Source: Eledone cirrhosa
Taxonomy: Eukaryota
NCBI GenBank assembly: GCA_964016885.1
Contig: OZ024764.1
Coordinates: 19,530,001-19,594,000 of the forward strand
Reading direction: 5' to 3'
Length of the DNA: 64,000 nucleotides
The notes below the pieces were generated by a model. The model was not told the origin of the DNA. It did not search any database and worked only from the letters and a program-made list of their open reading frames with translations. Position 1 is the stretch's first letter. Each line of letters starts with the position of its first letter. The position numbers and the translations under genes are program-made. Below are positions 1-64,000 of the stretch, piece by piece.

Positions 1-279
1 CTTTCACACAATAACAGTATTCCCTAACTTCTCCCCTAAAAAATACAAGACAAGCAGGGCCAGACTTTTACCTACTGAAGCCCTAAGCTATATGAAATTA
101 GAGGTTCTTCTCTAAAAATATATAATTATCTTTTATATTAATGTTAATGATAAAGAATAAATAATATAATAAATATACCACCATAGGTGCTGAGGTGGCT
201 AGCTGCTGGTGTGAGCCACATGAGATAGAATGTCTCTTCCAGCACATCTAGAACAACATGACCCTCTAATATCTAAATG

Positions 280-579
280 ATTTTTAATAGTTAAAATATA
301 CACATACGTATATATATATACACACACACACACACATTTTATTAAACAACACCACCAGCTCTCTCTCTCTCTCTTCCATCTGTCTCCTCACTCTCACAAC
401 CACTATCTCTTTCTCTCCCTATATATATCAAGGTACCAGAAAACCCCGTATCTTGGGAACCTGTGCTCCAATTTATACAAAAATTGTTTTATTCTTTTCA
501 AAGTATTTCCCCATTATGCACTGTTTTATCTGTATTAAATTAGACAAGACACAATCACAGAGTTTTAGTAGTATATAGA
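280..579 (-). mobile_element. Non-autonomous Helitron-like element, 3'-truncated (unit 1)
   Basis: 5' end A|TCTATATACTAC on the minus strand at 579; homologous to the complete copies at 43346 and 56395; the hairpin/CTAG end is deleted. Confidence 0.5.
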
Positions 580-707
580 TAATATAGCTTCAAATTAAAG
601 TTAGTAAACGACAGTTTGGAGAAATCTGTAACATTTATTAAACGTTGTTCAAGTTTGTCAATTCTATAGCACAATAGTTTGTTAATTAAAATGTTTAGTT
701 AGATGTT

Positions 708-1078
708 CTACATATAAAGAAGAGAGAATACTTTACCACAAATATTACAGTGGTATAATGATTTTCCCATCTCTTCTGGAAAATATTCCTATGTTGATGT
801 AAATATTTCTATTGTTCATAATTTTATCAAATGTGATCTTTGTCAATATCCAAATACTTTGAAAACTCCTTTGTAAATATCCAAAGTTCAATCAGAATGT
901 AAAATCATCTTGTAAATATTCCAAACAGTGAAAAAGGAATATGTTGTTATTTATCTCAATTCAGAAGAAATATTTCACCATAATTCACCACAGACTAAAC
1001 AAGTTTATATCACTTGTATGTAACATCTTTCTGTTGTCTTTAAAAGACTCTTTTCTGTCAAGGACATGTGATATTCTG
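708..1078 (-). pseudogene. Degenerate ZNF-type terminal exon with half-finger micro-ORF (unit 1)
   Basis: Acceptor TTTCTCTCCTATTTCAG at 1076-1078; sequence resembles the ZNF exon leader at 3780-4110; ORF 770..708 = MGKSLYHCNICGKVFSLLYM*; AATAAA on the minus strand at about 634-639. Confidence 0.65.
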
Positions 1079-1189
1079 AAATAGGAGAGAAACATTATTA
1101 AGATATTTAGAAAATAGAGATACAACAGTGAAAACTTTACTACATCTCTATATTAATAGATATAAACCTTACATGGTGACACAAACACT

Positions 1190-2100
1190 GCAACACTAAC
1201 TTACAGGAAAACATCTAGTTACTTGATCTAGTTACTTCAATCAGGTGAAGAGATAAACTAGATTGACTTCATTCTCATCAGAAAACAGGATAGACAGATG
1301 GTTGGGAATATTAACTCCTTTACTGGAGAAGGACGTACCACTCAACATAGACTAGATACTAGGTTTAATATCTAGAGGGACTGACAGATACAAGACTATC
1401 TGGAGATAGAAGGGTTGGAGAGTAAAAGATCTCCCTGTTAAATATAAGATCTACAGGGATTGTGAGGGAGGTACAAGACAACCTAGAGAAAAGGGTTGGA
1501 GAGTAAAAGATCTCCCTGTTAAATATAAGATCTAGAAATACTGTGAAAGAGATACAAGACAATCTAGAGAAAAGGGTAGGGACAGTAAAAGATCTCCCTG
1601 TTAAATATAAGATCTAGAGGGATACCTAGAGAAAAGGGTAGGGATAGTAAAAGATCTCCCTGTTAAATATAAGATCTAGAGGGACTGTGAGAGAGGTACA
1701 AGACAACCTAGAGAAAAGGGTAGGGATAGTAAAAGATCTCCCTGTTAAATATAAGATCTAGAGGTACTGTGAGAGAGGTACAAGACAACCTAGAGAAAAG
1801 GGTAGAGACAGTAAAAGATCTCCCTGTTAAATATAAGATCTAGAGGAACTATGAGAGAGGTACAAGACAACCTAGAGAAAAGGGTAGGGACAGTAAAAGA
1901 TCTCCCTGTTAAATATAAATTCAGAGATGTTCTACATGATACATATAATAAGGAGGAGGAGATTGATAGCTATGACATAGAAGATATCTGGAAGTTTCTT
2001 TCAGACAGCCTGTTGTGAACCACTGATGAGATCTGTAGTTGATGTAAGCTGCCAGCCAGATGAATGATGCCTTGGTGATGGAATAGTACAGTATATAGAA
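1190..2100 (+). mobile_element. RTE-clade LINE fragment (end of endonuclease) with internal 82-bp minisatellite
   Basis: Decayed translations QSGEE..IDFILIRKQDRQMV..TQHRL and KYKFRDVLHDTY..SYDIEDIWKF match the RTE copy at 5820-6120. Confidence 0.65.
1370..1920. repeat. ~82-bp minisatellite
   Basis: Unit GAGGGACTGTGAGAGAGGTACAAGACAACCTAGAGAAAAGGGTAGGGATAGTAAAAGATCTCCCTGTTAAATATAAGATCTA, about 7 copies. Confidence 0.9.
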
Positions 2101-2718
2101 GCCGACCTTACCCAATTACACCTCTCAAAGGCAATGACACACCACCGTGACCTCTGGCGTCACGCAGTAATACAGAGTACCCGACCTCCCATGGGTACAA
2201 GCTGAAGCATATAGACAATATGCCCCCACCGCAAAAAAGCACCCAGAAGTTAAAATCTAAAAGACCTGAAGAGACAGGAGGGGAACAACAATATCAAATA
2301 GTTAAAATGGAAGCTAGATATTAGGTTTACAAGTTATTGATTTCTGTTGTTATTGTTAAAATCTGTTTAATCTGTGATATTTGAGACAATGTACAGGACA
2401 ATAGAATTAATATCAATGTCTGACTAGCAACAACAAAAGTTTTCATTTTATTGGCAGGTTTAAATTACAGAAGTTCCCAACCTTTACTAAAAATACAAAT
2501 ATATATCTTACCTGTTAAAGTATAATAAATCAAAGTTTAATGTGAAAAACTTTAATTTACACAAAATCTTCAAACCCTGCTTCAAAAATGGAAACCTGGT
2601 GTTTATGATCTCTGTCATAGGTAAAACCTACAAGGGTAACCCCAGTTTAAGCCAGGATGATGGATCTACATATTGGTTGTTGTTGTAGTATGATGTAATG
2701 AGTTTGATATTGACACAG

Positions 2719-3613
<895 letters not shown>

Positions 3614-4537
3614 TCACCTCAATTTCTCACATAATTCACAGTTTTAATATTTTTCTCCTCTCAATATATGGATAGTTTTCTTCTTTATGTTTATAATATT
3701 ATTCTTAAAACATATTCGTCCAGATATATTTTTATCAACTTTGGTCTTTCTTTATATTTAAAGATGATATAGATCTCTTCAAGTTTAATATACATATAAA
3801 ATCATCTTGTACATTTTCCAGACAGTGAAGAATCTAATTTTTCTGGTCTTCATTTGATTAGTTATTCCTGTAATAATGGAAATATTTCTACTCCTGTAGT
3901 TCCATCAACTATCATCTTTGTCAATATATGAAGATCTTACTAAATCATGTGTAAATTTCTTCAGCTTTATTTTGTATCTTCTACATATTCCAGACAGCAA
4001 AGAATAGAAATGTTATTGAGTTTACAAGAAATATTTCACAGTATTTCTCCCCTAGATTTATATAAACAAGGTTGTATCTGTTCTGTATAACAGCTTCCTT
4101 TAGTCTTTAAATAATGGTGTTGATGAAACAACTGATATAAAAGTGTTTTATCCTTTTCATACCAGTCTTTATATTTATCTAAAAACTTTCCATTATAACT
4201 TCATGAAATTGTGCAAAGTTATGTTCCAAATAGCAGCTTAATACTGAGAAATTTAGTTATATTACTAAATCCCTTGAAAGTGTTGAGTGTTTTCAAAATT
4301 ATTTGAAAATGATGGGTAGTGTCTTTCATTAGAAATGATTAATATTGAGGATATGTCTGATGTAACGTGCTCTTTAATGCCAATGTCCTCTGGTATTCTG
4401 AAATAATAAAAGTACATTATAAGATTCTCAGAAACTTGTAATACATCAGTACAAATTTCATATAATATTTCTATATTGATAAATGGACTGTAATAAATAC
4501 TAAGGCCTTCTTTGGTGAAGAATGTGCTGACTAACAT

Positions 4538-5068
4538 AGGTTATTTATTAGTGGCAGTAGATTATACTGACTGATAAAAGTAGTTATTAGTGGCATTAGA
4601 TTATACTGACTGATAAAAGTAGTTATTAGTGACATTAGATTATACTGACTGATAAAAGTAGTTATTAGTGACATTAGATTATACTGACTGATAAAAGTAG
4701 TTATTAGTGACATTAGATTATACTGACTGATAAAAGTAGTTATTAGTGACATTAGATTAAACTGACTGATAAAAGTAGTTATTAGTGACATTAGATTAAA
4801 CTGACTGATAAAAGTAGTTATTAGTGACATTAGATTATACTGACTGATAAAAGTAGTTATTAGTGACATTAGATTAAACTGACTGATAAAAGTAGTTATT
4901 AGTGACATTAGATTATACTGACTGATAAAAGTAGTTATTAGTGACATTAGATTAAACTGACTGATAAAAGTAGTTATTAGTGACATTAGATTAAACTGAC
5001 TGATAAAAGTAGTTATTAGTGACTTTAGATTATACTGACTGATAAAAGTAGTTATTAGTGATATCAGA
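4538..5068. repeat. 39-bp minisatellite (~13-14 units)
   Basis: Tandem GTTATTAGTGACATTAGATTA(T/A)ACTGACTGATAAAAGTA. Confidence 0.95.
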
Positions 5069-5283
5069 TTAACCCTTTAGTATTCACATTACTCTATATT
5101 TACTATTATATTTTCACAGTAAATGCTTTATCTCACATAATATCAAATCTATGAGATTTTAATGTTACTTATTTTGAGAACAATACCTTAACATAAGTAT
5201 AAGTGACCAGTTACGGCCAGTTTGAACAGAAGATGTGGGAGAATTCTGGCCAGATATGGCCAGTTTATATACTAAAGGGTTAA
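5069..5283. mobile_element. piggyBac-like MITE
   Basis: TTAA-CCCTTTAGTAT ... ATACTAAAGGG-TTAA: terminal inverted repeats bounded by TTAA. Confidence 0.7.
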
Positions 5284-5284
5284 A

Positions 5285-7890
5285 GAAATTAGGTGTAGAA
5301 GAATGGCTTGTGAGAAGCTGTCAGTAAAGTGTCTAGTGAGGAATTGAAGGTACAGGTAGGAGTTCATCATGGTTTAGTTCTTAGCCCACTGTTGTTCATC
5401 ATAGTTCTCCAAGCCATAACAGAGAGGTTTAAGACTGGCTGTCTATGGAAACTTCTCTATGTAGATGACCAGCTATAGATATAGAATTTGAAATGGTAAG
5501 TTCTGAGAATATACTTAGCCAAAACTAAAGTGGTAATGGATAGGAGAGAAGACCCTGACCCCTTCAGGAAAGTGGCCCTGCTCCATATGTAGAAAAGGAA
5601 TAAGTAGAGATAACCACAATGACAGAGGACAAAGATCTAGTTATAATAGCAGGGGACTTCAATGGTCATGTTGGACAGCTCCAGGATGGATACACTGGGG
5701 TACATGGTGGTCATGGTTATGGCTCAAGAAATGAAGAAGGAGTGAGGCTTCTTGTATTTTGTGATGCAAGTGAACTAACCATTTGCAACACTTCAAGAAA
5801 CCTACCAACCACCTAATAACCTACCAATCAGGTGAGCACATGAGACAGATTTACTTCTTGCTAGTTAGGGAGTAAGACAGATAGATGGTGTCAAATACTA
5901 AGGCATACCCCAGGGAACAATGTAACCCCCCAACATAGGTTAGTCGTTAGTAACATCTCAGTAAGCAAGAGACAAAGAGAGACATACAAGGTGTGAAAAA
6001 GGAAGGTCTAGAAATTAAAAGACCTTTCACTAAAATATAAATTTAGGCGCGCCCTTCAAGATGTGTATGATGAAAAAGAAGACGTTTTAGCGTCGTATGA
6101 CATAGATGACAACTGGAATTTCTTACGTGACAACTTACTGCAGGTTACTCATAAAACTTGTGGCTGGAGCAGAGCTCCAACCAGACAGAGAGTGAGCTGG
6201 TGGTGGAACAGCACGGTAGATAGAGCCATTAGAGACAAAAGACTAGCATGGAACGTTTGGAAAAATTGTAGGGGTAGGGACCGATACACAGCCACTAAGA
6301 GAGAAGCTAGATGTCAGGTCTACTTAGCACGCAGGGAGGCTGAGAGTAGGAGGTTTGCCAATGTTAAGCGACGGGAAGATCAGAGGCGTGCAGTGTTCCA
6401 CATTGCAAGGCAGTGTGTCAGTGCAAATCAGGATGTTGTTGGAGATAAATGTGTCTGGGATGATGCCGATGTACTTAGTGTCACGAATGATCAGAAAAAG
6501 AAGGCCTGGAAATGTCGGGTCTACCTTCAGTAGACCCGACAGAAGGACCAGCTATTGAGATTGACGACTATAGGGTCCAAGAGGTAATTAAGGAAAGGAA
6601 AAATTGAGGTCTGCTGGACTGTTGGGGATAGTTGCTGAGATGCTGAAGGCATCAGGGGATGTAGGAAGTAAACTGGTTGCATGCATCATTAATCAAGCTA
6701 TATATGGTGGTGTCATACCCAAAGACTGGTGCAGCAGTATTCTCATAAATTGAGGTAAAGGTAAAGGGGATGTTCTGGAGAGGAGTAATTATATGGGCAT
6801 AAAACTGATGGATCAGGTTATGAAAGTGACAGAAAGAATACTAGCGCAACTTAGAGAAAGGGTCAAACAGATGCCCTCTTCTTAGTGAGACAACTACTAG
6901 AGAGGTTCTTAGAGAAGAATAAACCACTATACTTAGCTTTTGTTCACCTAGAAAAGGCCTTTGATAGAGTACCCCAATCTGTCATCTGGTGGTCCCTAAG
7001 GAAACTAGGTGTAGAGGAATAGTTTGTGAGGACAATGCAAGCTATGTACAGAGGTGGTGTCAGTAAAGTGAGGGTAGGAATGGAGTTTAATAAGGAATTC
7101 CAGATACAAGTAGGAGTAAATCAGGGTCGGTCCTCAGCCCGCCCTTGTTCATTATAGGCCTCCAAGCCATAAAAGAGGAGTTTAAGACTGGCTGCCCATG
7201 GGAACTTCTCTAGGCTGACGATGTGGTTCTTATAGCAGAATCAATAGAGGAGCTAGAGCATAAATACTGGCTATGGAAACAGCAGTTGGAAGCAAGAGGA
7301 CTGAGAGTGAACCTAACTAAGACAAAAGTGTTGAGTAGAAAAGAGGACAAATCTCTCATTCCATCAGGGAAATGGCCTTTTTCAATATGTAGAAAAGGAA
7401 CTGGCATAAATTCTATAATGTACACAATGCAGATTTTGGGTACACAAGAAATGTAGTGGGATAGCAGGCAAACTAACAGGTAGGGAAAACTACATATGCA
7501 GTAGAGGTACAGGGAAATTTGACAGTAGAAGTCACATTGATAGACACATTTTTCAAATGCAGATAGGTTCTATAGAAGTGGTTGATAGCTTCCGGTATCT
7601 AGGTGATCAAATTAGCATGGGAGGAGGGTGCTCAGAGGCCATAGTATCTAGAATAAGGACGGGTTGGAAGACGTTTAGGGAGCTGCTTGCTCTGTTGACA
7701 AAGAAGGGTTTCTCCCTAAGAACGAATGGCTGGTGATGCCTGCGTGAGATGTGTGATGCTGCACGGTAGTGAGACATGGACAGTAACTGTGGAGGATATG
7801 CGATGGCTGGAGAGAAATGAAGCAAGTATGCTCCGTTGGATGTGCAATGTCAATGTGCATCAACGACCAAGCATAGATGAGTTGAGAGAG
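5285..7890 (+). mobile_element. Decayed RTE-clade LINE (RT fragment, then endonuclease-RT region)
   Basis: IIAGDFNGHVG, GYGSRNEEG, WWWNSTV, AFVHLEKAFDRVP, ADDVVLIAES, MLHGSETW motifs with many stops and frameshifts. Confidence 0.85.
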
Positions 7891-7899
7891 AATGCACAA

Positions 7900-8310
7900 C
7901 ATGGCCATACCACTGCATGTGTCTCCTGTGAAACACATCCTTGAGGTTGTCGATCAGCAGTTTTTTTAGGAGCTCAGTTGAGCTGACATCATCCTCAATG
8001 GTCACACTACACATCCAGTGGATCATAGCTCTGTCATTTCTTCAGAGTCAATTCAGACAGTCAGATAACATGGCCCAGGTCTCGCTGGCATGAAACAACA
8101 CACTTCTCCCACAGGTGTTATAAATCTGCCCCATGGTGTCTAATGGTAGCCAGCATGTCTTGAGGATTAGGAGAAGCTGCCTAAACTTGTTACCTGTGGA
8201 GTGGCACAGCACAATGGCAGTGAACTTGGCTCCACTTCCAGCTGACATCTCACACAGGTAGCAGAAAGATGTCACCACATCCAGCTTGTCCTCACCAACA
8301 GGCCTCTAGT
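7900..8310 (-). mobile_element. RTE-like LINE 3' fragment
   Basis: VVTSFCYL..KFRQLL..RSVLFHASETW on the minus strand. Confidence 0.6.
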
Positions 8311-8329
8311 TATAAAGGTTATCATTGAC

Positions 8330-8582
8330 CAACACTGACACCCCTCAGGGTAGACTGAACCAACACTTACACCCCCAGGGGTGGACTGAAGCAACACTAA
8401 CACCCCCCAGGGTGGACTGAACCAACACTAACATCCCCCAGGGTGTACTGAACGAACACTAACACCCCCCAGAGTGGACTGAACCAACACTAACACCCCC
8501 AGAGTGGACTGATCCAACACTAACATCCCCCAGGGTGTACTGAACGAACACTAACACCCTCCAGGGTGGACTGAACCAACAT
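8330..8582. repeat. 31-bp tandem repeat (~8 units)
   Basis: AACACTAACACCCCCCAGGGTGGACTGAACC-like units. Confidence 0.85.
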
Positions 8583-8592
8583 TTACCACAGG

Positions 8593-9041
8593 TCTATAAA
8601 TAACTGTATTACCCTATCATGATACTATAACATTATAAACCTAAAACTCTGTGATTGTGTCTTGTCTGTAATGTAATACAGCTAAAATGGGGCATAATGG
8701 GAAAATAGTTTGAAAGGAAGTTGACCCTGAAATGGGAATACAAATGGGATAAAATAAGTTTCACGTAAATCAATGCACAGGTTCCCGAGATATGGGTTTT
8801 TTCTGGTACCTTTATAAATAGAGAGAGAAAGATAATGGGTGTGTGTGAGAGAGATAGCTGGTGATGCTGTTGAACAAAGTTATAAAATTAGAACAAGTGA
8901 CTTGTGTGTGTCTGTGACAGACATTCATATATATATATACTACTAATTTCATTTTAGATTATAGACATGTCTGTGTATATTTTAATTATTTAAAAATTAT
9001 TTTTAAAGGGAACATGACCCAACAGGTCACAGGTGTTCTAG
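8593..9041 (+). mobile_element. Non-autonomous Helitron-like element
   Basis: 5' TC start; 3' hairpin TGACC-CAACA-GGTCA followed by CTAG|T; internal microsatellites. Confidence 0.6.
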
Positions 9042-9119
9042 TAAGATTATAAATACAAACACACATAAGATAGAATCTACTCAAACCTTAATATCTCAGA
9101 ACCCAGTAGATTACTGGAA

Positions 9120-9245
9120 CTTTAATTTATCCACTCCGTTAGAATGAAAGACAAAGTTAACTTTGGTGGGATTTGAACTCATAACATAAAGGGTTGAAAT
9201 CCCGCCGAGGTTAGCTTTGCCCTTCATCTTTACGGGGTTGATTTA
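9120..9245. repeat. Two SINE-like fragments in inverted orientation
   Basis: GAATGAAAGACAAAGTTAACTTTGGTGGGATTTGAAC is the imperfect reverse complement of GTTGAAATCCCGCCGAGGTTAGCTTTGCCCTTCATC; a copy lies at about 48885-48990. Confidence 0.5.
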
Positions 9246-9880
9246 AGATCTTATAATAGTTTCTGATTAAGACACAAGGTCGACAATGTTGGGGGGGGGG
9301 GGAAATAAGTTGATTAAATCAAACACAGTTACTGTGAGATCACTTCTTTGATAGTTTGTTTAAAAATAACTGATTCACAATTTACGTGTGAAAAGTTGAC
9401 AAAGATTTACAGGTGGTGTTATCAATAAATAGGGCCTTCAAAGTAGCAGGAAACGACTAGATTTGTAGATGAAGAGGTGGGAGACAGGATTATTAGAGTT
9501 CAGAAGAGCTACACACTTCTCCAGTTGGCTGGGAAATGATTATCTTTCCTTAATTTTATTTCTCGACCTCTTAGATGTTTGCAATCGACTTTTCTTCCTG
9601 AAAACTGAAACCCTAACCGTAATACTGGGGAATAAAACGTCTATTGCAAGTATCGAAGGGGTCCAGAGAAAATATTGAAAAGGGGCCTAGAAAAAAATCT
9701 AAGAAAAATAATTTCCCACCCAACGTGAGGTGTGAGTAGATCTGTGAAACTACATCTCTTCGTATACTTTCACCCTACTTTTTCTACAAATCTAGTCGTT
9801 TCCGTGAGGGTACCTGGTTATTTCAGCCCCTTAGACTCACCTTACTGAGGTGAGCTTAAATCTACAATATTAATAGACAT

Positions 9881-10020
9881 AATACTTACATTACAGTCTC
9901 AGGTGTTTAGTATTTACAGAAATGTTGTCTAAATGATGTTGTAGGAAGACTAACACGTGGACAGGAAGTCGACAACTGCATCACTGCGCATGCTTCAATG
10001 TTTTTTTTGTGACGTAAAAT
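9881..10020 (-). promoter_or_regulatory. Candidate promoter and first exon of ZNF gene 1
   Basis: TGACGT (10010), NRF1-like TGCGCATGC (9985), ETS CAGGAAGT (9962), E-box CACGTG (9954), minus-strand donor GTAAGT at 9889; block conserved at 34720 and 50691. Confidence 0.6.
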
Positions 10021-10096
10021 ATTTTTACGGAATTAAATGATGTAAAGTTTCTAATAATGAAAATGAAAGTTGAAATCAGTAAATGTAATTAAAATA

Positions 10097-18700: not shown

Positions 18701-19067
18701 CCGACCTTACCCAATTACACCTCTCAAAGGCAATGACACACGACCGTGACCTCTGGCGTCACACAGTAATACAGAGTACCCGACCTCCCATGGGTACAAG
18801 CTGAAGCATATAGACAATAAGCCCCCACCGCAAAAAAGCACCCAGCTCACACTGTAAAGTGGACGTGTAGGCGCCACGAAAAAGCACCCAGCACTCACTG
18901 TAAATGAGGTTGGTGTTAGGAAGGACATCCAGCTGTAGAAATCAAGCCAAATCAGTTCCTGTATGAGCAAGGCATGGCCAGCCAAACAGACACTGCCCAC
19001 AACAGGACAATCCGTCTAACCAATGCTAGCGTGAAAGAACGGACGTAAAACGGTGATGATGATGATG
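18701..19067 (+). mobile_element. (ATG)n-tailed SINE-like insertion
   Basis: Absent at the equivalent site TAGATAGAAG|TTGAAATC in units 3 and 4; truncated version at 2102-2246. Confidence 0.7.
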
Positions 19068-19538
19068 AAAGTTGAAATCTAAAACAACTGAAGAGACAGG
19101 AGGGGAACAACAATATCAAATAGTTAAAATGGAAGCTAGATATTAGGCTTACAAATTATTGATTTCTGTTGTTATTGTTAAAATCTGTTTAATCTGTGAT
19201 ATTTGAGACAATGTACAGGACAATAGAATTAATATCAATGTCTGACTAGCAACAACAAAAGTTTTCATTTTATTGGCAGGTTTAAATTACAGAAGTTCCC
19301 AAACCTTTACTAAAAATACAAATATATATCTTACCTGTTAAAGTATAATAAATCAAAGTTTAATGTGAAAAACTTCAATTTACACAAAATCTTCAAACAC
19401 TACTTCAAAAATGGAAACCTGGTGTTTATGATCCCTGTCATAGGTAAAACCTACAAGGTTAACCCCAGTTTTAGCCAGGATGATGGATCTACACAATTGT
19501 TGTTGTAGTATGATGTAATGAGTTTGATATTGATACAG

Positions 19539-21911
19539 CTAAACTTCTGTATGAATACGCACATGCTTGAAGTTACCTCTGAGAGAGAATGATTTACCAC
19601 AGATGTCACAGTGATATGGCTTCTCTCCTGTATGAGTACGTTTGTGGGTAGCTAAGCTACTTCTGTCAGCGAATGATTTACCACAGATGTCACAGTGATA
19701 TGGCTTCTCTCCCGTATGAATACGTTTGTGGCTAGTTAAGCCACTTCTGTCAGTGAATGATTTACCACAGATGTCACAGTGATATGGCTTCTCTCCTGTA
19801 TGAGTACGTTTGTGGGTAGCTAAGCTACTTCTGTTAGCGAATGATTTACCACAGATATCACAATGATATGGCTTCTCCCCTGTATGAATATATTTGTGAG
19901 TAGTTAAGGTACTACTGCGACTGAATGATTTACCACAGATGTCACAATGATATAGCTTCTCCCCTGTATGAATACATTTGTGAGTAGTTAAGGTTCTACT
20001 GCGACTGAATGATTTACCACAGATGTCACAGTGATATGGCTTCTCTCCTGTATGAGTACGTTTGTGGGTAGCTAAACTACTTCTGTCAGCGAATGATTTA
20101 CCACAGATGTCACAGTGATATGGCTTCTCTCCCGTATGAATACGTTTGTGGCTAGTTAAGCCACTTCTGTCAGTGAATGATTTACCACAGATGTCACAGT
20201 GATATGGCTTCTCTCCTGTATGAGTACGTTTGTGGGTAGCTAAGCTACTTCTGTTAGCGAATGATTTACCACAGATATCACAATGATATGGCTTCTCCCC
20301 TGTATGAATATATTTGTGAGTAGTTAAGGTACTACTGCGACTGAATGATTTACCACAGATGTCACAATGATATGGCTTCTCCCCTGTATGAATACATTTG
20401 TGAGTAGTTAAGGTTCTACTGCGACTGAATGATTTACCACAGATGTCACAGTGATATGGCTTCTCTCCTGTATGAGTACGTTTGTGGGTAGCTAAACTAC
20501 TTCTGTCAGCGAATGATTTACCACAGATGTCACAGTGATATGGCTTCTCTCCCGTATGAATACGTTTGTGGCTAGTTAAGCCACTTCTGTCAGTGAATGA
20601 TTTACCACAGATGTCACAGTGATATGGCTTCTCTCCTGTATGAGTACGTTTGTGGGTAGCTAAGCTACTTCTGTTAGCGAATGATTTACCACAGATATCA
20701 CAATGATATGGCTTCTCCCCTGTATGAATATATTTGTGAGTAGTTAAGGTACTACTGCGACTGAATGATTTACCACAGATGTCACAATGATATGGCTTCT
20801 CCCCTGTATGAATACATTTGTGAGTAGTTAAGGTTCTACTGCGACTGAATGATTTACCACAGATGTCACAGTGATATGTCTTCTCTCCTGTATGAATACG
20901 TTTGTGACTAGTTAGGCCACTACTCTGAGAGAAGGATTTATCACAGATGTCACAGTGGTATGGCTTCTCTCCTGTATGAATACGTTTGTGAGTAGTTAAG
21001 GTACTACTGAGACTGAATGATTTACCACAGATAACACAGTGATATGGTTTCTGTCCTTTATGAATACGTTTGTGGCTAGTTAAGGTATTTCTGAGACTGA
21101 ATGATTTACCACAGATGTCACAGTGATGTGGCTTCTCTCCTGTATGAATTTGCTTGTGAACTCTGATGCTACTACCGTAACTAAATGATTTACCACAGAT
21201 ATCACAGTGATATGGCTTCTCTCCTGTATGAATACGTTTGTGAGTAGTTAGGTTATGACTACAAGTGAATGATTTACCACAGATATCACAGTGATATGGG
21301 CTCTCTCCTGTATGAATACGTTTGTGAGTAGTTAGGTGATTATTAATAGAGAATGTTTTACCACAGATATCACAGTGATATGGTTTCTCTCCTGTATGAA
21401 TATGTTTGTGAAGAGTTAAGCTACTACTGTGACTGAATGATTTGTTAGAGATATCACACTTATAAGGCTCCTCTCCTGTATGAATACGTTTGTGAGTAGT
21501 TAGGTGATTACTCTGAGAGAATGAATTACCGCAGATGTCACAGTGATATGGCTTCTCTCCTGTATGAATACGTTGGTGTTTAGTTAAGCTATATCTGCAA
21601 GAGAATGATTTACTACAGATGTCACAGTGATGTGGCTTCTCTCCTGTATGAATACGATGGTGTTTAGTTAAGGTATTATTGTGACTGAATGATTTACTAC
21701 AGATGTCACAGTGATATGGCTTCTCTCCTGTATGAATACGTTTGTCAACTCTGACGCTACTACTGTGACTGAATGATTTGTTACAGATATCACACTTATA
21801 AGGCTTCTCTCCTGTATGAATACGTTTGTGAGTAGTTAGGTGATTACTACGAGAGAATGATTTACCACAGATATCACAGTGGAATGGTGATTTTACTATA
21901 TTTTTCGACAT
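19539..21911 (-). CDS. C2H2 zinc-finger gene 2, 790 aa, 28 fingers
   Basis: Uninterrupted ORF; fingers 2 (H>D), 6 (C>S) and 28 (shortened) are degenerate; a 5-finger block is triplicated. Confidence 0.95.
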
Positions 21912-22871
21912 ATCTCCTACTAAAAGATATCAATCACCTCAGTTTCTCACATAATTCACAGTTTTAATATTTTTCTCCTCGCAATATATGGATATTTTTC
22001 TTGTTTATGTTTATAATATTATTCCTAAAATATATTCCTCCAGATATATTTCCATCAACTTTGGTCTTTCTTTATATTTAAAGATGATACAAACTGTTTT
22101 GTAGATCCCTTCAAGTTTAATATACACATAAAATCATCTTGTACATATTCCAGACAGTGAAGAATCTAATTTTTCTGGTCTTCAATTGATTAGTTATTCC
22201 TGTAATAATGGAAATATTTCTACTCCTGTAGTTCCATCAACTATCAACTTTGTCAATATATGAAGATCTTACAAAATCATGTGTAAATTTCTTCAGCTTT
22301 ATTTTGTATCTTCTACATATTCCAGACAGCGAAGAATAGAAGTGTTATTGAGTTTACAAGAAATATTTCACAGTATTTCTCCCATAGATTTATATAAACA
22401 AGGTTGTATCTGTTCTGTCTAACAGCTTCCTTTAGTCTTTAAATAATGGTGTTGATGAAACAACTGATATAAAAGTGTTTTATCCTTTTCATATCAGTCT
22501 TTATATTTATCTAAAAACTTTCCATTATAACTTCATGAAATTCTGCAAAGTTATGTTCCAAATAGCAGCTTAATACTGAGAAATTTAGTTATATTACTAA
22601 ATCCCTTCAAAGTGTTGAGTGTTTTCAAAATTATTTGAAAATGATGGGTAGTGTCTTTCATAAGAAATGGTTAATATTGAGGATATGTCTGATGTAACGT
22701 GCTCTTTAATGCCAATGTCCTCTGGTATTCTGAAATAATGAAAGAACATTATAAGATACTCAGAAACTTGTAATACATCAGTACAAATTTCATATAATTT
22801 TTCTATATTGGTAAATCGACTGTAATAAATACTAAGGCCTTCTTTGGGGAAGAATGTGCTGCCTAACATAG

Positions 22872-25368: not shown

Positions 25369-25583
25369 TTAACCCTTTAGTATTCACATTACTCTATATT
25401 TACTATTATATTTTCACAGTAAATGCTTTATCTCACATAATATCAAATCTATGAGATTTTCATGTTATTTATTTTGAGAACAATACCTTAACATAAGTAT
25501 AAGTGACCAGTTACGGCCAGTTGAACAGAAAGACATGAGACAATTCTGGCCAGATATGGCCAGTTTATATACTAAAGGGTTAA
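25369..25583. mobile_element. piggyBac-like MITE (duplicated copy)
   Basis: TTAACCCTTTAGTAT...ATACTAAAGGGTTAA. Confidence 0.7.
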
Positions 25584-28796: not shown

Positions 28797-28814
28797 TGGT
28801 GACCCCGACGTGAT
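28797..28814 (+). other. Primer binding site, tRNA-Trp
   Basis: TGGTGACCCCGACGTGAT is the complement of the 3' 18 nt of metazoan tRNA-Trp (ATCACGTCGGGGTCACCA). Confidence 0.9.
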
Positions 28815-34719: not shown

Positions 34720-34870
34720 AATACTTACATTATAGTCTCAGGTGTTTAGTATTTACAGAAATGTTTTCTAAATGATATTGTAGGAAGACTAACACGTGGA
34801 CAGGAAGTCGACAACTGCACCACTGCGCATGCTTCAATGTCAAAGGTCAAGTTTTTGTGTGACGTAAATA
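34720..34870 (-). promoter_or_regulatory. Candidate promoter and first exon of ZNF gene 2
   Basis: Same TGACGT/TGCGCATGC/CAGGAAGT/CACGTG block and GTAAGT donor as 9881-10020. Confidence 0.6.
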
Positions 34871-45138: not shown

Positions 45139-45789
45139 TTCAGAGATGTTCTACATGATACATATGATAAGGAGGAGGAGATTGATAGCTATCACATAGA
45201 AGATATCTGGAAGTTTCTTTCAGACAGCCTGTTGTGAACCACTGATGAGATCTGTAGTTGATGTAAGCTGCCAGCAAGATGAATGTTGCCTTGGTGATGG
45301 AATAGTACAGTAGATAGAAGTTGAAATCTAAAAGACCTGAAGAGACAGGAGGGGAACAACAATATCAAATAGTTAAAATGGAAGCTAGATATTAGGCTTA
45401 CAAGTTATTGATTTCTGTTGTTATTGTTAAAATCTGTTTAATCTGTGATATTTGAGACAATGTACAGGACAATAGAATTAATATCAATGTCTGACTAGCA
45501 ACAACAAAAGTTTTCATTTTATTGGCAGGTTTAAATTACAGAAGTTCCCAACCTTTACTAAAAATACAAATATATATCTTACCTGTTAAAGTATAATAAA
45601 TCAAAGTTTAATGTGAAAAACTTTAATTTACACAAAATCTTCAAACACTGCTTCAAAAATGGAAACCTGGTGTTTATGGTCCCTGTCATAGGTAAAACCT
45701 ACAAGGTTAACCCCAGTTTTAGCAAGGATGATGGATCTACACATTTGTTGTTGTAGTATGATGTAATGAGTTTGATATTGATACAGCTA

Positions 45790-45891
<102 letters not shown>

Positions 45892-45940
45892 TTAGTGGGT
45901 AGTTAAGGTATTACCCTGACTGAATGATTTACTACAGATG

Positions 45941-47488
45941 TCAATGATGTAGCTTCTCTCCTGAATGAATTTGTTTGTGAACTCTGACGCTACTACTGTG
46001 ACTGAATGATTTACCACAGATATCACAGTGATATGGCTTCTCTCCTGTATGAATACGTTTGTGAGTAGTTAGGTGATGACTACAAGAGAATGATTTACCA
46101 CAGATATCACAATGATATGGGTTCTCTCCTGTATGAATACGTTTGTGAGTAGTTAGGTTATTATTTTTAGTGAATGTTTTACCACAGATATCACAGTGAT
46201 ATGGGTTCTCTCCTGTATGAATACGTCTGTGAGTAGTTAGGTGATTACTACGAGAGAATGATTTACCACAGATATCACACTGATATGGCTTCTCTCCTGT
46301 ATGAATACGTTGGTGTTTAACGAAGCTACTTCTGTCAGAGAATGTTTTACCACAGATATCACAGTGATATGGTTTCTCTCCTGTATGAATACGTTTGTGG
46401 GTAGTTAAGGTATTTCTGTGACTGAATGATTTACCACAGATGTGACAGTGATGTGGCTTCTCTCCTGTATGAATTTGTTTGTGAACTCTGAAGCTACTAC
46501 TGTCACTGAATGATTTATCACAGATATCACATTGATATGGCTTCTCTCCTGTATGAATACGTTTGTGAGTAGTTAGGTGATGACTACAAGTGAATGATTT
46601 ACCACAGATATCACAATGATATGGGTTTTCTCCTGTATGAATACGTTTGTGAGTAGTTAGGTTATTATTTTTAGAGAACGTTTTACCACAGATATCACAG
46701 TGATATGGTTTCTCTCCTGTATGAATACGTTTGTGAGTAGTTAGGTGATTACTCTGAGAGAATGATTTACCACAGATATCACAGTGATATGGCTTCTCTC
46801 CTGTATGAATACGTTGGTGTTTAGTTAAGGTATTATTGTGACTGAATGATTTGCCACAGATGTCACAGTGATATGTCTTCTCTCCTGTATGAATACGTTT
46901 GTGAACTCTGACGCTACTACTGTGACTGAATGATTTGTCACAGATATCACACTGATATGGTTTCTCTCCTGTATGAATATGTTGGTGTTTAAGGAAGCTA
47001 CTTCTGCCAGAGAATGATTTACTACAGATGTCACAGTGATATGGCTTCTCTTCTGTATGAATACGTCTGTGATTAGTTAGGTGACTACTACCAGAGAATG
47101 ATTTACCACAGATATCACACTGATATGGCTTCTCTCCTGTATGAATACGTTGGTGTTTAACAAAGCTACTTCTGTAAGAGAATGATTTAACACAGATATC
47201 ACAGTGATATGGCTTCTCTCCTGTATGAATACGTTGGTGTTTAACAAAGCTACTTCTGTAAGAGAATGATTTACTACAGATATCACACTGATATAGTTTC
47301 TCTCCTGTATGAATACGTTTGTGTTTAGTTAATTTATTATTTTTAGAGAATGATTTACCACAGATATCACAGTCATATGTCTTCTCTTCTGTATGACTTA
47401 GTTTGTGTCTAGTTAATTTATTATTTTTAGAGAATGATTTACCACAGACATCACAGTGGAATGGTGATTTTACTATATTTTTAGACAT
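45941..47488 (-). CDS. C2H2 zinc-finger gene 3, 515 aa, 18 fingers, C-terminally truncated
   Basis: Open ORF; a 2-bp deletion at about 45943 creates the stop; two orphan fingers continue to the ancestral stop at 45787. Confidence 0.92.
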   Translation of the reverse strand: MSKNIVKSPFHCDVCGKSFSKNNKLTRHKLSHTEEKTYDCDICGKSFSKNNKLTKHKRIHTGEKLYQCDICSKSFSYRSSFVKHQRIHTGEKPYHCDICVKSFSYRSSFVKHQRIHTGEKPYQCDICGKSFSGSSHLTNHRRIHTEEKPYHCDICSKSFSGRSSFLKHQHIHTGEKPYQCDICDKSFSHSSSVRVHKRIHTGEKTYHCDICGKSFSHNNTLTKHQRIHTGEKPYHCDICGKSFSQSNHLTTHKRIHTGEKPYHCDICGKTFSKNNNLTTHKRIHTGENPYHCDICGKSFTCSHHLTTHKRIHTGEKPYQCDICDKSFSDSSSFRVHKQIHTGEKPHHCHICGKSFSHRNTLTTHKRIHTGEKPYHCDICGKTFSDRSSFVKHQRIHTGEKPYQCDICGKSFSRSNHLTTHRRIHTGENPYHCDICGKTFTKNNNLTTHKRIHTGENPYHCDICGKSFSCSHHLTTHKRIHTGEKPYHCDICGKSFSHSSSVRVHKQIHSGEKLHH

Positions 47489-48269
47489 ATCTCATAAAAG
47501 ATATCAATCACCTCAGTTTCTCACATAATTCACAGTTTTAATATTTTTCTTCTCGCAATATATGGATATTTTTCTTCTTTGTTTATAATATTATTCCTAA
47601 AACATATTCCTCCAGATATATTTCCATCAACTTTGGTCTTTCTTTATATTTAAAGATGATACAAACTGTTTTGTAGATCTCTTCAAGTTTAATATACATA
47701 TAAAATCATCTTGTACATATTCCAGACAGTGAAGAATCTAATTTTTCTGGTTTTTATTTGATTAGTTATTCCTGTAATAATGGAAATATTTCTACTCCTG
47801 TAGTTCCATCTACTATCATCTTTGTCAATATATGAAGATCTTACAAAATCATGTGTAATTGAGTTTACAAGAAATATTTCCCAGTATTTCTCCCCTAGAT
47901 TTATATAAACAAGGTTGTATCTGTTCTGTATAACAGCTTCCTTTAGTCTTTAAATAATGGTGTTGATGAAACAACTGATATAAAAGTGTTTTATCTTTTT
48001 CATACCAGTCTTTATATTTATCTAAAAACTTTCCATCGTAACTTCATGAAATGGTGCAAAGTTATGTTCCAAATAGCAGCTTAATACTGAGAAATTTAGT
48101 TATATTACTAAATCCCTTCAAAGTGTTGAGTGTTTTCAAAATTATTTGAAAATGATGGGTAGTGTCTTTCATTAGAAATGGTTAATATTGAGGATATCTC
48201 TTTAATGCCAATGTCCTCTGGTATTCTGAAATAATAAAAGAACATTATAAGATACTCAGAAACTTGTAA

Positions 48270-48484
48270 TAACTGTATTACCCTATGATGATACTATAAC
48301 ATTATAAACCTAAAACTCTGTGATTGTGTCTCGTCTGTAATGTAATACAGCCAAAACGGGGCATAATGGGAAAATAGTTTGAAAGGAAGTTGACCCTGAA
48401 ATGGGAATACAAATGGGATAAAACAAGTTTCACGTAAATCAGAGCCCAGGTTGCCGAGATATGGGGTTTTTCAGGTACCTTCAT

Positions 48485-58022: not shown

Positions 58023-58630
58023 ATTCAGAGATGTTCTACATGATACATATGATAAGGAGGAGGAGATTGATAGCTATGACATAGAAGATATCTGGAAGTT
58101 TCTTTCTGCCAGCAAGATGAATGTTGCCTTGGTGATGGAATAGTACAGTAGATAGAAGTTGAAATCTAAAAGACCTGAAGAGACAGGAGGGGAACAACAA
58201 TATCAAATAGTTAAAATGGAAGCTAGGTATTAGGCTTACAAGTTATTGATTTCTGTTGTTATTGTTAAAATCTGTTTAATCTGTGATATTTGAGACAATG
58301 TACAGGACAATAGAATTAATATCAATGTCAGACTAGCAACAACAAAAGTTTTCATTTTATTGGCAGGTTTAAATTACAAAAGTTCCAAACATTTACTAAA
58401 AATACAAATATATATCTTACCTGTTAAAGTATAATAAATCAAAGTTTAATGTGAAAAACTATAATTTACACAAAATCTTCAAACACTGCTTCAAAAATGG
58501 AAACCTGGTGTTTATTATCCCTGTCATAGGTAAAACCTACAAGGTTAACCCCAGTTTTAGCAAGGATGTTGGATCTACACATTGGTTGTTGTTGTTGTAG
58601 TATGATGTAATGAGTTTGATTTTGATACAG

Positions 58631-59512
<882 letters not shown>

Positions 59513-60452: not shown

Positions 60453-60940
60453 GTTAGTTATTAGTGGTAGTAGATTATACTGACTGATAAAAGTAATTAT
60501 TAGTGACATTAGATTATACTGACTGATAAAAGTAGTTATTAGTGGCATTAGATTATACTGACTGATAAAAGTAGTTATTAGTGACATTAGATTAAACTGA
60601 CAGATAAAAGTAGTTATTAGTGACATTAGATTATACTGACTGATAAAAGTAGTTATTAGTGACATTAGATTATACTGACAGATAAAAGTAGTTATTAGTG
60701 ACATTAGATTATACTGACAGATAAAAGTTTATTAGTGACATTAGATTATACTGACTGATAAAAGTAGTTATTAGTGGCAGTAGATTAAACTGACTGATAA
60801 AAGTAGTTATTAGTGACATTAGATTAAACTGACTGATAAAAGTAGTTATTAGTGACATTAGATTAAACTGACTGATAAAAGTAGTTATTAGTGACATTAG
60901 ATTATACTGACAGATAAAAGTAGTTATTAGTGACATTAGA
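60453..60940. repeat. 39-bp minisatellite (~12-13 units)
   Basis: Same unit as 4538 and 22872. Confidence 0.95.
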
Positions 60941-61156
60941 TTAACCCTTTAGTATTCACATTACTCTATATTTACTATTATATTTTCACAGTAAATGCTT
61001 TATCTCACATAATATCAAATCTATGAGATTTTGATGTTACTTATTTGGAGAACAATACCTTAACATAAGTATAAGTGACCAGTTACGGCCAGTTTGAACA
61101 GAAAGATATGAGACAATTCTGGCCAGATATGGCCAGTTTATATACTAAAGGGTTAA
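60941..61156. mobile_element. piggyBac-like MITE (duplicated copy)
   Basis: TTAACCCTTTAGTAT...ATACTAAAGGGTTAA. Confidence 0.7.
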
Positions 61157-62414
61157 GGAAATCAGGTGTAGAAGAATGGCTTGTGAGAAGCTATCAGTAA
61201 AGTGTGTTTAGTGAGGAATTGAAGGTACAGGTAGGAGTTCATCATGGTTTAGTTCTTCGCCAACTGTTGTTCATCATAGTTCTCCTAGCCATAACAGAGA
61301 GGTTTAAGACTGGCTGTCTATGGAAACTTCTCTATGTAGATGACCAGCTATAGATATAGAATTTGAAATGGTAAGTTCTGAGAATATACTTAGCCAAAAC
61401 TAAAGTTGTAATGGATAGGAGAGAAGACCCTGACACCTTCAGGAAAGTGGCCCTGCTCCATATGTAGAAAAGGAATAAGTAGAGATAACCACAATGACAG
61501 AGACCTAGTTATAATAGCAGGGGACTTCAATGGTCATGTTGGACAGCTCCAGGATGGATATACTGGGGTACATGGTGGTCATGGTTATGGCTCAAGAAAC
61601 GATGAAGGAGTGAGGCTTCTTGTATTTTGTGATGCAAGTGAACTAACCATTTGCAACACTTCAAGAAACCTACCAACCACCTAATAACCTACCAATCAGG
61701 TGAACACATGAGACAGATTGACTTCTTGCTAGTTAGGGAGTAAGACAGATAGATGGTGTCAAATACTAAGGCATACCCCAGGGAACAAAGTAACAGGAAA
61801 CGACTAGATTTGTAGATAAAGAAGTGGGAGACAGGATTATCGGAGTTTAGAAGAGCTACACACTTCTCCAGTTGGCTGGGAAATAATTATCTTTCCTTAA
61901 TTTTATTGCTCGACCTCCTAGATGTTTGCAATCGACTTTTCTTCCTGAAAACGGAAACCCTAATCCTAATACTGGGAAATAAAACGTCTATCGCAAGTAT
62001 CTAAGGGGTCCAGAGAAAAAATACTGGAAAAGGGGTATAGCAAGAATTCTAAGAAAAATAATTATTCTCACCCAACGTGAGGTGTGAGTAGATTTGTTAA
62101 ACTACATCTCTTTGTACACTTTCACCCTACCCTTTCTACAAATCTGGTCGTTTCCGTGAGGGTACCTGGTTATTTCAGCACCGTAGCCTCACCTTACTGA
62201 GGTGTCAGGTGATATCAGTAAGAGTACCTGGTTATCTCAGCACCTTAGCCTCACCTTACAGAGGCGTCAGGTGATACCCGTGAGGGTACCTGGTTATTTC
62301 AGCACCTTAGCCTCACCATCACCCGTTGTAATGCTGCCAGTGTGTTGGCTTGCCTCAAAGTGTGTAGTTAACCCCTAGAGTGTGAGGTGTGGCCTATTAT
62401 CACACTGTAAATTC

Positions 62415-63235
62415 AATTTATTCACGTTTATAATAACATATATAATGACACAATGCTTAGAGGAAAGTCATAAAATCACTTATATCAACACAAGTGGATA
62501 AGTTCCTTCAGAATGAAAATATAAACAGAGCATATAAATAAATTTACAGTAGAATAACATAACAAATATGTTTTAAATATATAAATAACATTACAAATGC
62601 CTCGGTAACACTATAAAGGATGATACAATGAAAGATAAATTCCTTCAATGTTGCAATATTAAAGAAAATGTAAAGGAAGGGGTGGACAACGGAGCCAACA
62701 CCAGAGCAAAAGACAGCAACGAGGGGTACTGGGAAACCTCTCTAATGAGTTTTGAGGCAAGCCAGCACACTGGCAGTGTTACCTCGGGTGATGGCGAGGC
62801 TGAGGTGCTGGAACAGCCAAGCGCCCTCGCGATTTCGACAGTTAACTCTATAAGGCGAGCCGCCAGTGAGGAAAGGAACCTCGCAGTCAGCGGCCCGACT
62901 CCCCCAAACGTCTCGAAAGCCACAGGCTGAAAAATGTAGCTGGCCGACAGATCAGAGTATTTGAGGGTCTTACTCCGCTCGGCTGCCGAAGCTGTGGCTC
63001 TCGTCCTTACCGCAGCATCAAGGATATGGGAAAGAGCAAAGGAGTCACTAACAGTGACGTCCCAGATTAAGCACCTGCCTCTCGACCAGGGGCACAGGGT
63101 AAGGGCGTCAGGTCTTTTGCCGTCACTTCTGGACAACCCAGATGGTTCCAAGACTGAGGGGATGTTTGCCCGGGCCAAAGCTCTCTTCAGAGTAAAGTTT
63201 AGCTCCGTGTGACGGGCAAGTTAGCTCCTCTCGTG
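62415..63235 (-). mobile_element. CRE-like endonuclease fragment (duplicated copy)
   Basis: Near-identical to 26780-27600. Confidence 0.75.
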
Positions 63236-64000
63236 CGTGCTGCAGTTGGTGGAGAATGAGAGGTCGAAGGCTGACTGTTTGTCACATTAGTCGTTCCACC
63301 AAGCAGGTCTCTTGGTCGTTCAACGCATGCCACCGCCACCTAGAGTGGACTAGGTTAAAGTGGTGGCAACTTTAGCAATCGGCAATCGCCGGTGATAGTT
63401 CGGTCGAAACATCGGGCCACCGGCGGGTTGAACGAATACCTAGGTGGGCTGTGCGCGAGGAGGAAGTAAGGGTTGAGCAAGGGGAGGGATGGAAGGTGTT
63501 GAAGGAGAGAGAAGATGATGAGTGCGTGGAGAGGAGTGTGGTCATGTGAGAGGCAGGTAAATACGGTGGGAGAGAAAGAGCACTGAACATGCAAAGAGAA
63601 GGAAAATAAAAACGCTAGAAATACAAAATCTAAGGCTGTGAGTTTGTGTAATAGTTCGCATGGGTAAATCCGCAGTAAAAACCGAAATTGTGAGTTTGTG
63701 TAAAAAAGAAAAAACAAAAAAAAAACATGGGCAAGACTTAAGTAAAATCAAAACCTGAATGATAGTGATACAAGATGTTTACAATTACGGAGTGATTACA
63801 TTACTGGACCTGAATTCCATCAAGTGGTCAAAGCTTCTAATTCTGTGAAATAGAATGGAAGTATGGATTGACCTTTCAGTCACACCTGACTATAAATAGA
63901 TTCAGGTTATTTCAAGAGGGAGATGGGATGGTTCCTCGCCATTTATAATTATTTATATTTTATATTTGGGGGGTTTGATTTTGAAAAATTGTAAGTGTAT

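What the first reader, a model, noticed from the sequence alone, without database searches (positions are those of the whole stretch)
1..64000. ZNF units are recombinant mosaics, with crossovers mapping in or near the finger arrays
Seen: left-flank markers group units 1+2 against 3+4 (the SINE at 2102/18701 is present in 1 and 2, and the site is empty at 45320 and 58158). Right-flank markers group 1+3 against 2+4 (units 2 and 4 share the deletion joining about 5920 to about 9440 and carry the CRE block; units 1 and 3 keep the plus-strand Helitron). All four flank combinations therefore occur. Fingers are shared in patches: gene 4 shares SCRYSLTKH and GNSFSQSNH with gene 2, and its first and last fingers resemble those of gene 3; genes 1 and 3 share [14 protein letters not shown] and TCSHHL. 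Inference: unequal crossover or gene conversion through the 84-bp finger repeat generates new DNA-binding specificities, a PRDM9/KRAB-ZNF-like diversification in a family lacking KRAB.
Basis: partly seen in the sequence, partly recalled or inferred. Interest (0 to 1): 0.75.

Follow-up and report, generated by a model that had tools for sequence, protein, structure and literature searches.

The report
Octopod zinc-finger family swapping DNA everywhere
The four genes are a small sample of a young tandem family of at least 186 zinc-finger genes, likely from an octopod, whose copies have swapped DNA along their whole length rather than mainly inside the finger repeats; this likely reshuffles which DNA each protein would bind, as already described for vertebrate zinc-finger families.

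Summary
The mosaicism is real; the claimed crossover location is not supported. The four units belong to a cluster of at least 186 C2H2 genes, about 2.9% diverged, with Octopus proteins as best hits. Among the 65 of 100 compared units where both markers could be scored, all four SINE/deletion combinations occur. Site incompatibility rises with distance (0.34 to 0.51; 0.21-0.24 without recombination) inside every array-free block. The SINE/deletion crossover maps to the 39-bp minisatellite in the predicted intron, 0.9 kb or more from the fingers. Unit 2 also carries a donor tract of about 0.7 kb that likely ends near finger 1. Only 1 of 40 detected breakpoints fell in the array interval; a 10-fold hotspot was not matched in simulations (0 of 31). 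Arrays do turn over fast: 7 of 23 near-identical sister comparisons differ in finger number. ORFs are preserved (58 of 77 against about 9 expected) and contact residues have pN/pS 1.5-1.8. No KRAB or SET domain was found. Conversion and finger gain/loss are published for vertebrate poly-ZF paralogues, and this scan noted similar shuffling in another cluster of this genome. Binding, function and long-read support are untested.

The parts
2102..2244 (+). Unit 1 SINE insertion, 5' part only (3' part missing)
   Evidence: alignment
2719..3590 (-). Gene 1 finger array: 9 canonical fingers plus one damaged by deletion; frameshifted after the start codon; all 9 within 0-1 nt of a 13-finger paralogue at C25:19288900
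4398..9889 (-). Predicted intron of gene 1 (GT..AG); contains the 39-bp VNTR, a LINE fragment and the Helitron-like piece, so the 'right-flank' markers are intronic
   Evidence: one contig of run X4 joins the two exons
4545..5071 (.). 39-bp VNTR of unit 1 (13.5 copies); homologous interval 4434-5170 holds the crossover that made the SINE+deletion type
5925..9438 (+). Segment absent from units 2 and 4: endonuclease/RT LINE fragment, 31-bp VNTR and Helitron-like end (CTAG at 9038-9041)
9890..10000 (-). Predicted short upstream exon of gene 1 (donor at 9890; its 5' end is not defined; no long ORF)
18701..19068 (+). Unit 2 full-length SINE at the shared site
19539..21911 (-). Gene 2 ORF, open: 27 canonical fingers plus a last finger lacking one codon; a five-finger block repeated about three times; patches closest to other paralogues at fingers 3, 7 and 8
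21935..22547 (.). Conversion-like tract in unit 2 from the lineage of a paralogue at C25:19674544 (20 of 20 informative sites; outer bounds 19535-22676; likely includes finger 1)
22874..25371 (.). 39-bp VNTR of unit 2 (64.6 copies), at the crossover interval of the SINE+deletion type
26213..26219 (.). Deletion junction in unit 2
26700..28360 (-). CRE-like non-LTR fragment shared with unit 4; the name rests on a recalled endonuclease motif, no Pfam hit
34729..34830 (-). Predicted upstream exon of gene 2 (donor at 34729; intron 11,999 bp)
45310..45325 (.). Empty SINE site, unit 3
45787..47488 (-). Gene 3, 20 fingers, frameshift between fingers 18 and 19
48268..48271 (.). Unit-3-specific deletion junction (unit-1 positions 4443 to 8599)
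58148..58163 (.). Empty SINE site, unit 4
58631..59494 (-). Gene 4 ORF, open, 10 fingers, finger-only protein; collinear with paralogue C25:19432994 (6 nt over 10 fingers)
61786..61794 (.). Deletion junction in unit 4
62335..64000 (-). CRE-like block of unit 4

Best explanation
The four units are members of a young tandem family of at least 186 likely finger-only C2H2 genes whose copies have exchanged DNA along the whole unit, likely by unequal crossover and gene conversion, with no detectable crossover hotspot in the finger arrays. Steps: (1) shown: the family expanded recently on one chromosome (flanks about 2.9% apart). (2) Shown: copies are mosaics in the 3' flank, the leader, the intron and the arrays. 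(3) Shown: arrays also gain and lose whole fingers quickly. Inferred: this is because the 84-bp repeat lets exchanges fall out of register while keeping the frame, so an ordinary exchange rate has large effects on the protein. (4) Inferred from ORF retention and pN/pS: selection keeps frames and the finger scaffold and tolerates or favours change at helix positions -1, 2, 3 and 6. (5) Untested: the proteins bind different DNA targets, most likely repeats or transposons by analogy with other metazoan poly-ZF families.
For: 186 exact copies of the 33-nt start motif; all listed hits lie on C25, 19.1-23.9 Mb. All four SINE/deletion classes occur among 65 scorable units: 6, 3, 24 and 32. PHI-like test p=0.0005 on 321 sites in 77 representatives. 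Incompatibility near/far is 0.34/0.51 against 0.21-0.24 in 6 of 6 no-recombination simulations, and is about doubled in each array-free block tested at 200-450 bp (0.38-0.52 against 0.19-0.24). Unit-2 tract: 20 of 20 sites from one donor, 69 of 76 outside from its sisters, p<=3e-13 before correction for about 4e5 triplets. SINE+deletion crossover at 4434-5170. Probability of a donor switch across the 1.05-kb array is 0.28-0.40, within the 0.05-0.62 range of other 0.85-1.2-kb gaps. The array-minus-control difference of -0.04 was reached by 7 of 31 uniform, 2 of 31 three-fold and 0 of 31 ten-fold hotspot simulations. 1 of 40 breakpoints fell in the array interval, which is 14% of the span. 7 of 23 sister comparisons differ in finger number at 0-1.2% flank divergence. 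58 of 77 arrays are open against about 9 expected. pN/pS is 1.5-1.8 at contacts and 0.52 in the framework.
Against: Short conversions that begin and end inside an array are invisible to flank markers, so a high rate inside arrays is not excluded. The array copying model gave 4.6 between-gene switches per kb, only modestly above 12 nulls without between-gene exchange (2.7-3.7). My search for clean two-parent chimeric arrays returned 1 of 77 candidates, and that one was a false positive. 14 of 40 breakpoints lay in the 480 bp just 3' of the array, which partly fits 'near the arrays', although these are not independent and block-wise incompatibility there is not unusual. Simulations did not match the absolute switch level (0.7-0.8 against 0.4). 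pN/pS was counted on a spanning tree of recombining fingers, and two non-contact codons after the first His also show high pN. The predicted leader has 13-15 upstream ATGs, so translation is uncertain. The sample is 100 of at least 186 units and was partly chosen by similarity. No long reads were available.
Confidence: 0.68

Rival explanations
1. One reading: the 84-bp finger repeat is the main site of exchange between genes, a PRDM9-like engine that produces new specificities.
For: One end of the unit-2 tract falls in or at the edge of the array. Gene 2 has fingers 1 nt from distant paralogues and 4-8 nt from its sister. LD decays within the finger (r2 0.07 to 0.012). The array copying rate exceeds all 12 nulls, and 45 finger types occur in 3 or more genes against 22-34 in nulls. 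A ten-fold rate of tracts confined to the array would not show in flank tests.
Against: No excess of flank switching across the array; 1 of 40 breakpoints. There is little within-array homogenisation (59 of 997 nearest fingers in the same gene; 82% within-array identity) and no SET/KRAB in the ORFs scanned.
Confidence: 0.17
2. Neutral turnover: a tandem repeat family that happens to contain finger ORFs, shuffled like any satellite, with mostly non-functional products.
For: Genes 1 and 3 are frameshifted; 19 of 77 representatives are broken. The predicted leader has many upstream ATGs and looks like decayed coding sequence. Flanking VNTRs are at least as unstable (one 39-bp array spans 83 kb).
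Against: 58 of 77 arrays are open against about 9 expected at the flank indel and substitution rates. Framework pN/pS is 0.52, with Cys, His and Phe conserved. A spliced contig exists for the family.
Confidence: 0.09
3. The mosaics are assembly chimeras between haplotypes or collapsed paralogues.
For: Highly repetitive region. Short-read contigs and RAD reads could not span any unit. Two sister pairs are 100% identical in their flanks and could be duplicated by the assembler.
Against: The SINE+deletion type occurs at three loci that differ from each other by 0.3-0.9%. The unit-2 tract is a double switch within 0.7 kb to a donor lineage 125 kb away on the other strand and differs from that donor at 4 of 809 sites. 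The signal is family-wide and depends on distance.
Confidence: 0.04

Closest known systems
Lineage-specific poly-ZF / KRAB-ZNF expansions of vertebrates (Emerson & Thomas 2009, PMC2604467; Kauzlaric 2017, PMC5363842; Bruno 2025, PMC12575710; passages read)
   Same: Tandem clusters of young paralogues, segmental duplication, gain and loss of whole fingers, shared finger blocks between non-adjacent genes, gene conversion between paralogues, and excess change at -1, 2, 3, 6.
   Different: No KRAB or other effector found; the predicted protein is 11 residues plus fingers. Conversion appears family-wide here. Emerson & Thomas found it in a few genes of most sets and in most genes only in two chicken sets. 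No TRIM28 or TE-binding data here.
Coleoid/octopus C2H2 expansions (Albertin 2022, PMC9068888, passages; Holzinger 2025, PMC12513265, part 1 of 7 and term search)
   Same: Best N-terminal protein hits are Octopus ZNFs (20 of 43 hits, top three). Multi-megabase clusters and lineage-specific groups of 104-495 sequences are reported.
   Different: The main text of PMC12513265 has 0 occurrences of recombination, gene conversion or crossover. PMC9068888 mentions conversion only for protocadherins. Best identity to a named Octopus protein is 76% over the first 45 residues, so this family is not shown to be one of the described clusters.
PRDM9 zinc-finger minisatellite (Baker 2017, PMC5519329, passages)
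   Same: 84-bp coding repeat, fast change in finger number, and diversity concentrated at contact residues: median 0.39 of amino-acid diversity, near the 0.414 that ranked 6-7 of 313 in cattle.
   Different: No KRAB-SSXRD-SET found. The share is well below the 0.67-0.68 of top-ranked bovid PRDM9. Fingers resemble those of other genes rather than those of their own array. It is a family of at least 186 copies rather than one locus.
Zebrafish FiNZ-ZNFs (Wells 2023, PMC10547256, passages)
   Same: KRAB-less, lineage-specific, several-hundred-member ZNF family with positive selection on base-contacting residues.
   Different: FiNZ genes have a conserved N-terminal domain and knock-down evidence for TE repression; neither is shown here.

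Membership tests
KRAB-ZNF | N-terminal KRAB domain on a separate exon | tested here: not met
   No KRAB among the 25 best Pfam rows shown for genes 2 and 4, and the ORF is fingers from residue 12 on. The one upstream exon found and the leader have stops in all three frames. Further upstream exons are not excluded.
KRAB-ZNF | Tandem C2H2 array with TGEKP linkers in one exon | tested here: met
KRAB-ZNF | Recruits TRIM28 and represses transposons | not testable with these tools
   needs binding and knock-down data
PRDM9 | PR/SET, SSXRD and KRAB domains upstream of the array | tested here: not met
   none in the ORFs scanned or in the predicted upstream exon
PRDM9 | Fingers homogenised within one array | tested here: not met
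   nearest finger in own gene 59, in another gene 827, tie 111, of 997; within-array identity 82%. Local exceptions: the five-finger block of gene 2 and KNTKLTR runs in two other genes.
PRDM9 | Amino-acid diversity concentrated at -1, 2, 3, 6 | tested here: inconclusive
   median 0.39 per gene (76 genes); no same-genome ranking was possible
Lineage-specific poly-ZF expansion (birth-and-death, Emerson & Thomas type) | Clustered young paralogues with intact and broken members | tested here: met
   at least 186 copies; 58 of 77 open
Lineage-specific poly-ZF expansion (birth-and-death, Emerson & Thomas type) | Finger gain and loss between close paralogues | tested here: met
   7 of 23 sister comparisons
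Lineage-specific poly-ZF expansion (birth-and-death, Emerson & Thomas type) | Positive selection at DNA-contact residues | tested here: inconclusive
   pN/pS 1.5-1.8 against 0.52, but counted on recombining sequences without a codon model
Octopod C2H2 expansion | Closest proteins are Octopus ZNFs | tested here: met
   20 of 43 hits and the top three for residues 1-45; the full-length query gave only generic hits at 36-63% identity

The most novel reading that the evidence does not exclude
This is an effector-less family of about 200 genes that works as one shared library of DNA-binding fingers. Out-of-register exchange between genes keeps assembling new arrays and new recognition helices, giving octopods an adaptive, KRAB-independent repertoire against transposons or for neuron identity, with copy and finger number differing between individuals.
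Probability: 0.15. Interest if true: 0.75.

Novelty: new member of a known kind. Interest (0 to 1): 0.4.

Why it matters
Cephalopod C2H2 expansions are usually analysed as trees of genes. Here a young cluster is a network, so gene trees and codon-model tests on such families can mislead. Its low divergence and many markers make it a good place to measure how finger arrays diversify. The result is that ordinary paralogue exchange plus an in-frame repeat is enough, with no hotspot needed. If the proteins are translated and bind repeats, the family offers a direct test of whether invertebrates run a KRAB-free version of the ZNF-transposon arms race.

Tried and rejected
Li-Stephens switch rates per kb were rejected as a rate map: no-recombination data give 6.3 per kb against 8.4 observed, and single marker-free gaps are not comparable with marker-rich blocks. 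The array copying rate alone was rejected until calibrated: nulls with higher mutation or within-array conversion reach 3-6 per kb; matched nulls give 2.7-3.7. The search for two-parent chimeric arrays gave 1 of 77, a false positive. A hand-picked candidate (C25:19674544) has 11 fingers collinear with one paralogue and 3 with another, but its flanks do not sort cleanly. Triplet permutation p-values (floor 5e-5) are too coarse for about 5,700 parent pairs per child, so only scores of 11 or more were used (the maximum was 10 in 39 simulated children from one alignment). Reads: no RNA holder was listed; short contigs and RAD reads do not span a unit, so they say nothing on assembly. The 605-bp skip seen in X4 and X1 matches a genomic deletion carried by many copies and is not a splice in the gene's direction. 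No Helitron Rep/helicase hit in the deleted segment. Literature: a search for paralogous + zinc finger genes + shuffling + fingers + recombination between found 0 papers; cephalopod + zinc finger + gene conversion + octopus found 9, none on C2H2 conversion by title or abstract, and only PMC9068888 of these was opened. Supplements were not read and may bear on this. Look-ups of earlier findings near this place and by sequence returned nothing.


Full report
What is there. The window holds four copies of a unit with a minus-strand C2H2 array, 82-bp and 39-bp minisatellites and unique flanks. The flanks are about 94-98% identical between units. The window lies at C25:19.53-19.59 Mb of a 3.0-Gb assembly. 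A 33-nt start motif occurs 186 times exactly, and all listed hits of four searches fall on C25 between 19.1 and 23.9 Mb (lists are truncated). The best hits for the first 45 residues are Octopus proteins (20 of 43), so the host is likely an octopod. Genes 2 (27 fingers plus one shortened) and 4 (10) are open; genes 1 and 3 are frameshifted.

Gene structure. One contig of run X4 runs from the unit-2 position 22729 into 30 letters that match the sequence at 34729 and 50700. Both ends are canonical splice sites, present in all window units where they can be seen. This predicts a short non-coding exon, an intron of 2.5-12 kb, and a second exon with about 800 nt of stop-ridden leader before the finger ORF. 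The evidence is one contig from a run of unrecorded kind, with 30 letters on one side, and it cannot be assigned to one copy.

The observation. The SINE is shared by units 1 and 2 and the site is empty in 3 and 4. The deletion and CRE-like block are shared by 2 and 4. SNPs agree: 9:1:1 for 12|34 on the left and 10:0:0 for 13|24 beyond the deletion, but 3:3:2 in the 0.85 kb beside the array. The deleted segment is mainly a LINE fragment with a small Helitron-like end, and unit 3 carries a different deletion.

Wider sample. I fetched 464 kb around the window plus targeted stretches from top-hit lists, so the sample is not random. This gave 116 arrays. I kept the 100 with at least 5 fingers and enough flank on both sides, and collapsed sisters within 1% to 77 representatives. 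Median flank distance is 2.8%. Of the 100, 65 could be scored for both markers, and all four classes occur: 6, 3, 24 and 32. Near sites are more compatible than permuted ones (0.348 against 0.474, p=0.0005). Incompatibility is 0.34 near and 0.51 far, against a flat 0.21-0.24 in six simulations without recombination. The excess holds inside each array-free block. One tree does not fit.

Where the crossovers are. Two sisters of unit 2 follow a SINE-bearing paralogue through the leader (12 of 14 sites) and then a deletion-bearing paralogue that neighbours one of them (27 of 29 sites). The switch lies between unit-1 positions 4434 and 5170, across the 39-bp VNTR and 0.9 kb or more from the fingers. 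Unit 2 has a second, younger event: 20 consecutive sites at 21935-22547 match a paralogue on the opposite strand 125 kb away, while 69 of 76 sites outside match its sisters. Finger 1 is identical to the donor's and fingers 4-5 to the sister's, so one end is likely in the first fingers. That finger is identical in 19 genes, which weakens the placement.

Family-wide, 22 of 77 children passed a threshold set by simulation. Of their 40 breakpoints, which are not independent, 1 fell in the array interval, 14 in the 3' 480 bp and 12 in the next 900-bp block. The probability of changing nearest relative across the array (0.28-0.40) sits within the range for other gaps of about 1 kb. Forward simulations reached the observed array-minus-control value in 7 of 31 uniform, 2 of 31 three-fold and 0 of 31 ten-fold hotspot runs; their absolute level was higher than observed, so this is approximate. 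Tracts confined to an array escape these tests.

The arrays. The 997 fingers of the representatives carry 282 different helices; 559 have an identical 63-nt copy in another gene, and only 59 are nearest to a finger of their own gene. Much of this can be common descent: nulls without between-gene exchange also give 33-50% identical 84-nt fingers against 44% observed, and 65% of flank windows have an identical copy. The between-gene switch rate (4.6 per kb) and the number of shared types (45) exceed all 12 matched nulls (2.7-3.7; 22-34), a modest excess similar in size to the flank excess of about 2 per kb. Finger number changes fast: 7 of 23 sister comparisons differ, some at 0.03-0.2% flank divergence.

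Selection. 58 of 77 arrays are open against about 9 expected from flank indel and substitution rates (a rough estimate). pN/pS on a spanning tree of 495 fingers is 1.5-1.8 at -1, 2, 3, 6 and 0.52 in the framework. Recombination violates the assumptions of such counts, as Baker 2017 notes (passage).

Mechanism. Shown: recent expansion, exchange along the whole unit, fast finger gain and loss, ORF retention. Inferred: unequal crossover and conversion between paralogues at an ordinary rate, with the in-frame 84-bp repeat turning some events into new finger orders and hybrid helices. Untested: translation, binding, targets.

Known systems. Conversion among poly-ZF paralogues, finger gain and loss, and selection at contacts are in Emerson & Thomas 2009 (passages). 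Drift and shift of arrays and recombinogenic young clusters are in Kauzlaric 2017 and Bruno 2025 (passages). KRAB-less families under selection are in Wells 2023 (passages). Cephalopod C2H2 clusters are in Albertin 2022 and Holzinger 2025, which do not discuss recombination among C2H2 genes in the main-text passages searched. It fails the defining tests for KRAB-ZNF and PRDM9 and works like a young poly-ZF expansion. An earlier scan note (e1-9557371) reports similar finger shuffling in another cluster of this genome; it is unchecked and is not support.

Verdict. A real and well-supported paralogue mosaic, with the breakpoint claim corrected. New member of a known kind; interest 0.40.

Noticed in passing
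G000:C25:19434790-19517775 (L011-L019): The 39-bp intronic VNTR of one family member has expanded to an array of about 83 kb inside the predicted intron; in 80 measured units the interval is 0.16-4.8 kb.
   Followed up: partly
window 700-790 (and homologous places in units 2-4): The 3' flank contains a decayed older ZNF start with one finger remnant and a 67% copy of the leader, so each unit seems to carry a fossil paralogue downstream.
   Followed up: partly
G000:C25:20353511 and 20560986: Two open arrays with runs of 13-18 near-identical KNTKLTR-type fingers: local PRDM9-like homogenisation in a family that otherwise lacks it.
   Followed up: no
window 19632-20890 (gene 2): A five-finger (420-bp) block repeated about three times with near-perfect identity; the two sister genes lack the expansion.
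   Followed up: partly
window 16574-16870: A second, inverted copy of the same SINE family is inserted in the left flank of unit 2, as in its sister at C25:19382477.
   Followed up: no
window 28392-34070: LTR retrotransposon (404-bp repeats 99.8% identical; gag-like, RT/RNase H and integrase-like ORFs in separate frames) inserted in the predicted intron of gene 2; described only.
   Followed up: no
G000:C25:19.33-19.43 Mb: A multi-unit block is duplicated about 48 kb apart (0.3% flank divergence), including an inverted ZNF copy; the cluster also changes strand several times, for example near 19.64 and 20.97 Mb.
   Followed up: no
leader region homologous to window 59542-60146: A 605-bp genomic deletion in many copies removes most of the ATG-rich leader and might ease translation.
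   Followed up: no
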